In this document: piece after piece, positions 57,478 through 58,785 of the stretch
How positions within the stretch are numbered: position 1 is the stretch's first letter
Layout of the letters: each line of letters begins with the position of its first letter
Source of the DNA: Escherichia coli
GTDB lineage: Bacteria > Pseudomonadota > Gammaproteobacteria > Enterobacterales > Enterobacteriaceae
Reading direction: 5' to 3' (one strand)
DNA length: 64,000 nt
Assembly (NCBI RefSeq): GCF_024223415.1
Contig: NZ_CP100500.1
Program-made: the position numbers

Positions 57478-58785
57478 TACGGAGGGTGCGGGAATTTGTA
57501 GGCCTGATAAGACGCGCAATGAACTGCACCCCAAATGTTGGACATAATCTGACATCTGAAGGTGCAGTTTATGAAACATTCATTTGAAGTAAAACTTGCC
57601 GCTGTAAATCATTACCTGGCCGGTCATGCAGGCATCATTTCTACGGCAAAACTCTTTCAACTTTCTCACACCAGCCTCTCACACTGGATTAATCTTTTTC
57701 TTCTTCACGGTCCTCAGGCACTGGATTGCAGACACAAGCGTAGCTATTCTCCTGAAGATAAACTTTGCGTGGTTCTTTATGCTCTCGGGCATTCTGAGTC
57801 TCTACCCCGGGTAGCTGCCCGGTTTAACATTCCCAGCCACAACATGGTTAAAAACTGGATAAAAGGCTACCGCAAATCTGGTAATGAGGCCTTTATCAGG
57901 CGCAGGAAGGAGAAAAGCATGACCCGTTCTGATGATACCCATGAAAACGAGGCAAACATGACGCCGGAAGAGATGAAGAATGAGCTGCGTTATCTTCGCG
58001 CAGAAAATGCATATCTGAAAGCCATGCAGGAGCATCTCCTGGAAAAAAAGCGCCAGGAGCTGGAGAAAAAACGAAAGTCATCCAGAGCCTGAAGTGCGGA
58101 CACTGCCAGTCTGACCTGTTAAAGGCTGCAGGGCTGGCCAGAAGCACGCTGTACTACCAGCTGTCACTGCAGAAGGCTAAGGACAAGTATGCTGATGTGA
58201 AACAGCTCATAGCCTCCATCTTCCATGAACACCGGGGATGTTATGGGTACCGGCGGATCCATTGTGAGCTTCAGAAAAGAGGTCTTAAGTTCAGTGGCAA
58301 AACGGTGCGAAAACTGATGCAACAGCTCGGCCTGAAGTCTCCTGTGCGCCTGAAGAAATACCGGTCTTACCGGGGAAATATGGGACTCGCTGCAGAAAAT
58401 ATCCTTCAGCGGCAGTTCAAAGCGGAAGCTCCCTGTGAGAAATGGGTGACAGATATCACCGAATTCAGGGCTGGCGGACAAAAACTGTACCTGTCCCCGA
58501 TACTTGATTTGTTTAACGGGGAAATCGTGGCGTGGGAAACTGCCTGCAGGCCTACAGAGGAGCTGGTGAAGCGCATGTTAAATAAGGGGCTGGAAAGCCT
58601 TGCAGAAGGAGAAAAACCGCTGCTCCACAGTGATCAAGGGTGGCATTACCGGATAAAAAGTTATCAGTCTGCCCTGGCAGACAAAGGGTTAGTGCAGAGC
58701 ATGTCGCGCAAGGGCAACTGCCTTGATAATGCGGTAATGGAGAATTTCTTTGGTCACCTGAAAGAAGAAATGTACTATCGCCGGG

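What the first reader, a model, noticed from the sequence alone, without database searches (positions are those of the whole stretch)
57500..57522. IS150 copy 2 also inserted in a REP loop, at the equivalent position
The second copy has the same geometry: the reconstructed site is gacgc-ACCA-gcgtc with a 3-bp CCA duplication. Two independent insertions at the same position of two different REP elements makes chance unlikely. The duplication length differs between the two reconstructed sites (3 bp versus apparently 4 bp), which is itself worth confirming.
Basis: seen in the sequence. Interest (0 to 1): 0.45.

Follow-up and report, generated by a model that had tools for sequence, protein, structure and literature searches.

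The report
IS1397 in REP loops, flanks swapped
The element is IS1397, not IS150: an insertion sequence already known to insert into the loops of REP hairpins, and in this window the DNA between its two copies has been inverted, so each copy carries one flank from each original site.

Summary
The 1432-bp element at 57520-58951, and its identical inverted twin at 24288-25719, is IS1397. It is not IS150. IS1397 is the IS3-family element already described in the literature as inserting specifically into E. coli REP/palindromic units. IS-free genomes fix the targets: GACGC-ACCA-GCGTC between yjcO and gltP (3-bp CCA duplication), and GACGC-GCAA-GCGTC between yjdN and yjdM (4-bp duplication). Both are 4-nt hairpin loops. 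A survey of ten further IS1397 copies gave four sites with 3-bp and five with 4-bp duplications, so the length difference is routine. In this window copy 2 is flanked by GCAA on the left and CCA on the right. The duplications match only across the two copies. Seven close relatives carry both insertions with matching duplications and the ancestral gene order. The window's junctions occur in 0 of 5426 complete E. coli genomes. The 31.8-kb yjcO-yjdN segment (25720-57519) has therefore been inverted between the two copies, most likely by homologous recombination; an assembly orientation error cannot be excluded. This is known biology and of low interest.

The parts
57520..58951 (+). IS1397 copy 2, 1432 bp. 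Imperfect terminal inverted repeats (TGAACTGCACCCCAAA... / ...TTTGGGGTTCAGTTCA). Transposase CDS 57571-58919 with a programmed -1 frameshift.
   Evidence: 100% identity to RefSeq 'IS3-like element IS1397 family transposase' loci. Boundaries and identity to copy 1. Terminal repeats and slippery AAAAAAAG at 58043. HTH_28 in OrfA and rve in OrfB. ORFs.
24288..25719 (-). IS1397 copy 1, 1432 bp. It is the exact reverse complement of copy 2.
   Evidence: 0 mismatches.
57498..57519 (+). Left flank of copy 2: REP arm GTAGGCCTGATAAGACGC plus GCAA (57516-57519). This is the yjdN-side half of the yjdN|yjdM REP (site A) and carries one copy of the 4-bp site-A duplication.
   Evidence: Sequence. K-12 and strain 300709 empty site GACGC-GCAA-GCGTC. 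SCU-316 has GCAA[IS]GCAA.
58952..58969 (+). Right flank of copy 2: CCA (58952-58954) plus REP arm GCGTCGCATCAGGCA. This is the gltP-side half of the yjcO|gltP REP (site B) and carries one copy of the 3-bp site-B duplication.
   Evidence: Sequence. Empty site GACGC-ACCA-GCGTC in L003-L005. SCU-316 has TGG[IS]TGG on the other strand.
24270..24287 (+). Left flank of copy 1: REP arm GCCTGATGCGACGC plus TTGC (24284-24287). This is the yjdM-side half of site A and carries the second copy of the 4-bp duplication (the reverse complement of GCAA).
25720..25741 (+). Right flank of copy 1: TGG (25720-25722), then T, then REP arm GCGTCTTATCAGGCCTAC. This is the yjcO-side half of site B. TGG is the second copy of the 3-bp CCA duplication.
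25720..57519 (.). 31,800-bp segment (yjcO, fdhF, mdtPON, yjcS, a sugar-utilisation cluster, the phn operon, yjdN) that is inverted relative to all other complete E. coli genomes searched.
   Evidence: Direct alignment to SCU-316: the interior aligns forward and both outer flanks align in reverse, at 99.9% identity. Gene order in SCU-316 and K-12. Window junctions found in 0 of 5426 genomes. Ancestral junctions found in 11 and 8 genomes.

Best explanation
Two copies of IS1397 (IS3 family, IS150 subgroup; a DDE transposase made by a programmed -1 frameshift) inserted independently, in opposite orientations, into the 4-nt apical loops of two REP/palindromic-unit hairpins. One insertion lies between yjdN and yjdM (loop GCAA, whole loop duplicated, 4 bp). 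The other lies between yjcO and gltP (loop ACCA, last three bases duplicated, 3 bp). Loop targeting is the known, transposase-determined target preference of IS1397. The 3- or 4-bp duplication reflects a variable stagger of the target cut. Later, homologous recombination between the two identical inverted copies flipped the 31.8 kb between them. Each IS now sits between one REP half from each site, and the duplications match only across the copies.

Shown here: element identity, boundaries, empty sites, duplication lengths in cis in relatives, and the inverted order in the window.
Inferred: the order of events, and homologous recombination as the inverting mechanism.
For: Identity: 100% match to annotated IS1397 in many genomes. 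Length is 1432 bp, with TG...CA terminal repeats and an A7G slippery site. HTH and rve domains are present.

Targets: the trans-reconstructed empty sites occur as one uninterrupted piece in 3749 genomes (yjdM|yjdN) and 3409 genomes (yjcO|gltP). The exact loops are ACCA and TTGC/GCAA. Both fold as hairpins with 4-nt loops, at z -5.7 and -4.9.

Duplications in cis: SCU-316 has GCAA[IS]GCAA and TGG[IS]TGG.

Generality: ten more IS1397 copies at nine distinct sites. Eight lie in clear REP loops. Duplications are 3 bp at four sites and 4 bp at five.

Inversion: window flanks are TTGC[IS]TGGT and GCAA[IS]CCA. Alignment to SCU-316 shows the interior inverted relative to both flanks at 99.9% identity. 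Seven genomes that match the reconstructed ancestral junction queries at 99.9-100% identity carry both insertions in the ancestral order. The window's junction pairs are in 0 of 5426 genomes.

Literature: IS1397 inserts specifically into E. coli REPs, with experimental evidence suggesting that the transposase itself determines the specificity (PMC1525189; PMC3184786).
Against: No reads are available, so the orientation of a segment bounded by two identical 1.4-kb inverted repeats could be an assembly choice rather than biology. The two copies are 100% identical, so no crossover point can be mapped. At the CCA site the last base of the IS is A, and the base before the left-hand CCA copy is also A. 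A 4-bp ACCA duplication with an IS lacking its terminal A is therefore formally possible. Other copies have unambiguous 3-bp duplications (CAC, GTA, GCC), which makes 3 bp the simpler reading. The primary IS1397 papers could not be read here. The details '1432 bp' and '3-4 bp duplication in the loop', as published facts, rest on my memory and on my own survey.
Confidence: 0.75

Rival explanations
1. The insertions are as described, but the inversion is not biological. The assembler, or a scaffolding step, placed the 31.8-kb segment between two identical 1.4-kb inverted repeats in the wrong orientation.
For: The window's junction combinations are absent from all 5426 complete genomes. All seven genomes carrying both insertions, which match the reconstructed ancestral junction queries at 99.9-100% identity, show the uninverted order. 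Perfectly identical inverted repeats are the classic cause of orientation ambiguity in short-read assemblies.
Against: A 1.4-kb repeat is easily spanned by long reads, and the window is contiguous across both copies. Recombination between 1.4-kb inverted repeats about 32 kb apart is an ordinary event. Nothing in the sequence itself argues for an error.
Confidence: 0.2
2. One-step origin. A single IS1397 at the yjdN|yjdM site transposed replicatively, within the same molecule, into the yjcO|gltP REP loop. That event would create the second, inverted copy and the inversion together, and it predicts exactly this pattern of swapped flanks.
For: The window's flank pattern, a[IS]t' ... a'[IS]t, is formally what intramolecular replicative inversion produces. 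Genomes with the IS only at the yjdN|yjdM site exist, for example 32F4.
Against: The seven genomes that carry IS1397 at both sites have it at the same position, in the same orientation and with the same 3-bp duplication in cis; they match the reconstructed ancestral junction queries at 99.9-100% identity. One recombination event is therefore more parsimonious than an independent identical insertion. From general knowledge, IS3-family elements move by copy-out-paste-in through a circular intermediate, not by a cointegrate-type replicative pathway.
Confidence: 0.03
3. One reading: IS150 copy 2 sits in its own REP, whose empty site is GACGC-ACCA-GCGTC, and CCA is duplicated on both sides of this copy.
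For: CCA does follow the right end of copy 2, and the ACCA site is a real empty site elsewhere.
Against: The left flank of copy 2 is GCAA, not CCA. The element shares only a 70-nt stretch of 77% identity with K-12 IS150, and its length is 1432 against 1443 bp. No genome joins yjdN and gltP across an IS.
Confidence: 0.01

Closest known systems
IS1397 (IS3 family, IS150 subgroup), the REP/palindromic-unit-specific insertion sequence of E. coli (Bachellier 1997; Clement 1999; Wilde 2001, 2003)
   Same: 100% nucleotide identity to annotated IS1397 copies. Two-ORF frameshifted DDE transposase. Insertion into the apical loop of REP hairpins with a 3- or 4-bp duplication.
   Different: Nothing about the element itself differs. 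Only the later inversion between the two copies is specific to this genome.
IS150 of E. coli K-12 (insJK)
   Same: Same family and subgroup, the same two-ORF frameshift layout, similar TG...CA ends, and a short target duplication.
   Different: No extended DNA similarity: the best stretch is 70 nt at 77%. OrfA is 27% and OrfB 52% identical. Length is 1443 against 1432 bp. From memory, IS150 is not described as REP-loop specific.
ISKpn1 (Klebsiella) and other REP-targeting ISs such as IS621, ISPpu9, ISPpu10, ISPsy8 and ISPa11
   Same: They use REP elements as preferred targets (PMC1525189).
   Different: They are different elements, some from other families (IS110, IS4, IS5, IS256). IS621 inserts beside the palindrome, not in the loop (PMC3184786).
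Inversions by homologous recombination between inverted IS copies (general bacterial genome rearrangement)
   Same: Identical inverted repeats at both ends, target duplications exchanged between the copies, and no gene disrupted.
   Different: Both breakpoints lie inside REP hairpins. The chimeric junctions therefore still look like intact REPs, which hides the exchange.

Membership tests
IS1397 | Near-identity of the DNA to known IS1397 copies | tested here: met
   100% identity over 1426 nt to many loci annotated 'IS3-like element IS1397 family transposase'. 1707 genomes hold a copy covering at least 80% of the query.
IS1397 | About 1.43 kb with imperfect terminal inverted repeats ending TG...CA | tested here: met
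   1432 bp in the window and in 12 other copies. 21 of the first 25 terminal positions match between the two ends.
IS1397 | IS3-type transposase: OrfA (HTH) and OrfB (DDE/rve) joined by a programmed -1 frameshift | tested here: met
   HTH_28 at 4.8e-17 and rve at 9.1e-22. AAAAAAAG at 58043. RefSeq CDS annotated 'programmed frameshift'. The frameshift itself was not tested experimentally.
IS1397 | Insertion into the loop of REP/palindromic units with a 3-4 bp duplication | tested here: met
   Empty sites have 4-nt loops ACCA and GCAA. Cis duplications of 3 and 4 bp in SCU-316. 8 of 9 additional sites lie in clear REP loops.
IS150 | Nucleotide identity to the K-12 IS150 reference (1443 bp) | tested here: not met
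   Best blastn stretch is 70 nt at 77%. OrfA 27% and OrfB 52% amino-acid identity. Length 1432 bp.
REP / palindromic unit (BIME component) | Imperfect GC-rich palindrome matching the GCC[G/T]GATGCG[A/G]CG...CG[T/C]CTTATC[C/A]GGCCTAC consensus, in an intergenic position | tested here: met
   Both reconstructed sites match the consensus and fold at -12.9 and -11.6 kcal/mol. They lie in the yjcO|gltP and yjdN|yjdM intergenic regions among other REPs. The consensus itself is recalled from memory.
IS-mediated inversion by homologous recombination | Identical repeats in inverted orientation at both ends, target duplications exchanged, and relatives with the uninverted order and cis duplications | tested here: met
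IS-mediated inversion by homologous recombination | Physical (read-level or PCR) support for the inverted orientation in the source strain | not testable with these tools
   No reads and no strain identity are available. The arrangement is absent from the 5426 complete genomes searched.

The most novel reading that the evidence does not exclude
The inversion is real and strain-specific. It would be a reversible 31.8-kb flip of yjcO-fdhF-mdtNOP-phn-yjdN between two REP-embedded IS1397 copies, reversing the direction of these operons relative to replication. Because both chimeric junctions still look like intact REPs, such events would be systematically overlooked. An even more unusual variant is that it arose in one step by intramolecular IS1397 transposition.
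Probability: 0.7. Interest if true: 0.2.

Novelty: already known. Interest (0 to 1): 0.13.

Why it matters
It matters mainly as a correction. The element is IS1397, whose preference for REP elements has been known since the late 1990s, so the non-random targeting is expected and not a discovery. The useful additions are modest. The two target sites are fixed exactly: the yjcO|gltP loop ACCA with a 3-bp duplication, and the yjdN|yjdM loop GCAA with a 4-bp duplication. A small survey shows both duplication lengths are common in natural copies. The window also carries an IS1397-bounded 31.8-kb inversion seen in none of 5426 complete E. coli genomes. Anyone using this assembly should check that inversion. 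It also illustrates how exchanged target duplications reveal past recombination between IS copies.

Tried and rejected
(1) Cis reconstruction of copy 2's site (GACGC-GCAA/CCA-GCGTC, joining yjdN to gltP). No genome has yjdN and gltP, or yjdM and yjcO, joined across an IS. No shift of the IS boundaries gives a direct repeat in cis.

(2) IS150 identity. Rejected by direct comparison with the K-12 IS150.

(3) Reading the primary IS1397 papers (PMC94167, PMC95333, PMC169884, PMC135288). None is held in the library. I used two secondary papers that cite them and my own survey of copies.

(4) Partial matches of strains 32F4, 33E and 33F4 (74% of the ancestral yjdM-IS-yjdN query) looked like a possible second rearrangement. 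In 32F4 the order is the normal yjdM-IS1397-yjdN, and the short match appears to come from extra intergenic sequence between the IS and yjdN, presumably more REP (BIME) units; the sequence itself was not examined.

(5) The overlap between alignments near 54.8-54.9 kb was checked for tandem repeats. None was found; it is a single palindromic intergenic repeat.

(6) A 4-bp ACCA duplication at the yjcO|gltP site. This is formally possible because the IS ends in A, but it is less simple than 3 bp, given unambiguous 3-bp duplications elsewhere.

Full report
WHAT IS AT THE COORDINATES
Positions 57498-57519 read GTAGGCCTGATAAGACGC-GCAA. An insertion sequence follows, starting TGAACTGCACCCC at 57520. 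It ends ...GGGGTTCAGTTCA at 58951 and is followed by CCA-GCGTCGCATCAGGC. A repeat search finds one other copy in the window, inverted, at about 24285-25741. Trimmed to the element, the two copies are 24288-25719 (- strand) and 57520-58951 (+ strand). Each is 1432 bp, and they are exact reverse complements with no mismatch.

IDENTITY OF THE ELEMENT
A megablast of copy 2 against 5426 complete RefSeq E. coli genomes gives 100% identity to many loci annotated 'IS3-like element IS1397 family transposase'. 1707 genomes hold a copy covering at least 80% of the query. Compared directly with the annotated IS150 of K-12 MG1655 (L007, 1443 bp), the best DNA alignment is 70 nt at 77%. OrfA is 27% identical and OrfB 52%.

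The element has these features:
- Imperfect terminal repeats, with 21 of the first 25 positions matching between the two ends.
- An AAAAAAAG slippery site at 58043.
- An HTH_28 OrfA and an rve (DDE) OrfB.
- A RefSeq CDS annotated with a programmed frameshift.

The held literature states that IS1397 inserts specifically within E. coli REP sequences, and that experimental evidence suggests the transposase itself determines this specificity (PMC1525189; PMC3184786; both cite Clement 1999 and Wilde 2001, 2003). The primary papers are not in the library. That they report a 1432-bp element inserting in the loop with 3-4 bp duplications is my recollection.

FLANKS AND TARGET DUPLICATIONS
On the + strand the flanks are:
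- Copy 1: GATGCGACGC-TTGC-[IS]-TGGT-GCGTCTTATCAGG
- Copy 2: GATAAGACGC-GCAA-[IS]-CCA-GCGTCGCATCAGG

Neither copy has a direct repeat of its own, and no shift of the boundaries makes one. Across the copies the repeats are perfect. TTGC (24284-24287) is the reverse complement of GCAA (57516-57519). TGG (25720-25722) is the reverse complement of CCA (58952-58954). This is the signature of an inversion between the two copies.

EMPTY SITES
I built the two trans reconstructions, each with 300 bp on either side. Each occurs as a single uninterrupted piece covering at least 80% of the query, with best hits at 99.0-99.2% identity, in thousands of genomes:
- Site A, the yjdM|yjdN intergenic region: 3749 genomes.
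- Site B, the yjcO|gltP intergenic region: 3409 genomes.

Read base by base, the empty sites are:
- Site B: GACGC-ACCA-GCGTC in strains 2018-05-2CC, OkiPb01695 and O145 RM9872.
- Site A: GACGC-TTGC-GCGTC in strain 300709. K-12 has the same site, read as GCAA on the other strand.

K-12 has a different loop (TTGCC) at the site-B REP. As single-stranded DNA both empty sites fold into REP hairpins with a 4-nt apical loop (-12.9 and -11.6 kcal/mol; z -5.7 and -4.9).

Because the IS ends in A, site B could formally be read as a 4-bp ACCA duplication with an IS one base short. The 3-bp reading is simpler, and unambiguous 3-bp cases exist elsewhere (see the survey below).

RELATIVES WITH BOTH INSERTIONS
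Strain SCU-316 (L001) has the K-12 gene order: gltP | IS1397 | yjcO ... phn ... yjdN | IS1397 | yjdM. Its duplications are in cis: GCAA[IS]GCAA and TGG[IS]TGG.

Queries made of 1 kb of flank, the IS, and 1 kb of flank gave these counts of genomes covering at least 80% of the query:

| Junction arrangement | Genomes |
|---|---|
| Ancestral, yjdM-IS-yjdN | 11 |
| Ancestral, yjcO-IS-gltP | 8 |
| As in window, yjdM-IS-yjcO | 0 of 5426 |
| As in window, yjdN-IS-gltP | 0 of 5426 |

Seven genomes match both ancestral queries at 99.9-100% identity: SCU-316, KV7, O78 strain 3, NCTC10444, NCTC9112, S51 and GPEC1446. A direct blastn of the window against SCU-316 aligns the interior (24249-54928 and 54823-58970) forward and both outer flanks in reverse, all at 99.9% identity. 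The segment 25720-57519 (31,800 bp) is therefore inverted in the window.

MECHANISM
The simplest history has three steps:
1. Two independent IS1397 insertions into REP loops, in opposite orientations.
2. Inheritance of both copies by a clade of strains.
3. In the lineage of this window, one homologous recombination between the two identical inverted copies.

This history keeps each IS in its orientation, disrupts no gene, and swaps one REP half and one copy of each duplication between the sites. Because all these REPs share the same stems, the chimeric junctions still look like normal REPs, which explains why the exchange was easy to miss.

A one-step intramolecular replicative transposition would give the same flank pattern. 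It requires an independent identical insertion at site B, and a mechanism not used by IS3-family elements, which from general knowledge move by copy-out-paste-in. I rate it at about 3%.

An assembly orientation error between two identical 1.4-kb inverted repeats cannot be excluded without reads. I rate it at about 20%.

HOW GENERAL THE TARGETING IS
I read both flanks of ten more IS1397 copies from other genomes (L008-L017). They represent nine distinct sites.
- Eight lie in clear REP loops. Some loops have GACGC/GCGTC-type stems and others GGCG/CGCC-type stems.
- One (yhjD, L010) has a recognisable REP arm on one side only.
- Duplications are 3 bp at four sites (CAC, GTA, AAA, GCC) and 4 bp at five (GCCA, GTTC, ACAA, TGAC, GTCA).

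In the window only seven intact REPs were found by a consensus scan, and their loops make up about 0.03% of the bases. Loop insertion is therefore far beyond chance, but it is the known behaviour of this element, and the 3-versus-4 difference is routine.

VERDICT
The insertion in a REP loop, the ACCA empty site, and the 3- and 4-bp duplications are all confirmed. The element is IS1397, not IS150, and its REP targeting is published. The specific claim about copy 2 is wrong in cis, because copy 2 is flanked by GCAA and CCA as a result of the inversion between the copies. The inversion is the only feature not already on record, and it is an ordinary kind of IS-mediated rearrangement that needs read-level confirmation. 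Interest is low.

Noticed in passing
window about 36300-45450 (L001 14910-24051): In this lineage and in SCU-316, the K-12 allose/rpiB region (alsK-alsR, rpiB) is replaced by a different cluster: a response regulator, a carbohydrate kinase, a ketose-bisphosphate aldolase, a D-lyxose/D-mannose isomerase, an ABC sugar transporter and a hybrid sensor kinase. Window coordinates are inferred from the alignment offset.
   Followed up: no
window 54823-54928 (phnE-phnD intergenic region): A palindromic GGGGAGAGGG / CCCTCTCCCC-rich intergenic repeat, which I recall as boxC-like, lies where the two alignments to SCU-316 overlap. The window carries roughly 100 nt more than SCU-316 here. No tandem repeat was detected.
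   Followed up: partly
L002 3796-4436 and 33743-34399 (K-12), compared with window 25720-25860 and 57380-57519: K-12 carries long tandem arrays of REP pairs (BIMEs) in both the gltP|yjcO and the yjdN|yjdM intergenic regions (641 and 657 nt), while the window's lineage has only about two units at each. The number of REP units is strongly polymorphic at exactly the two IS1397 target loci. Strain 32F4 also has more sequence between the IS and yjdN.
   Followed up: partly
L010, L011, L013 (right end of IS1397): Some IS1397 copies have a single-base variant in the right terminal repeat (GGGGTTCTGTTCA instead of GGGGTTCAGTTCA) while keeping the 1432-bp length and normal duplications.
   Followed up: no
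L008-L017, plus window sites A and B: IS1397 orientation relative to the REP looks biased. In 8 of the 10 distinct sites with a recognisable REP, the IS left end abuts the ...ATAAG(A/G)... arm; the exceptions are L012 and L016. The sample is small and no statistics were run.
   Followed up: no
L010 (strain ECNB21-M121, downstream of yhjD): One IS1397 copy, with a 3-bp AAA duplication, has a recognisable REP arm only on its right side (ACGCCTTATCCGGC). Either the target is a degenerate REP, or this is an insertion outside a canonical hairpin.
   Followed up: no
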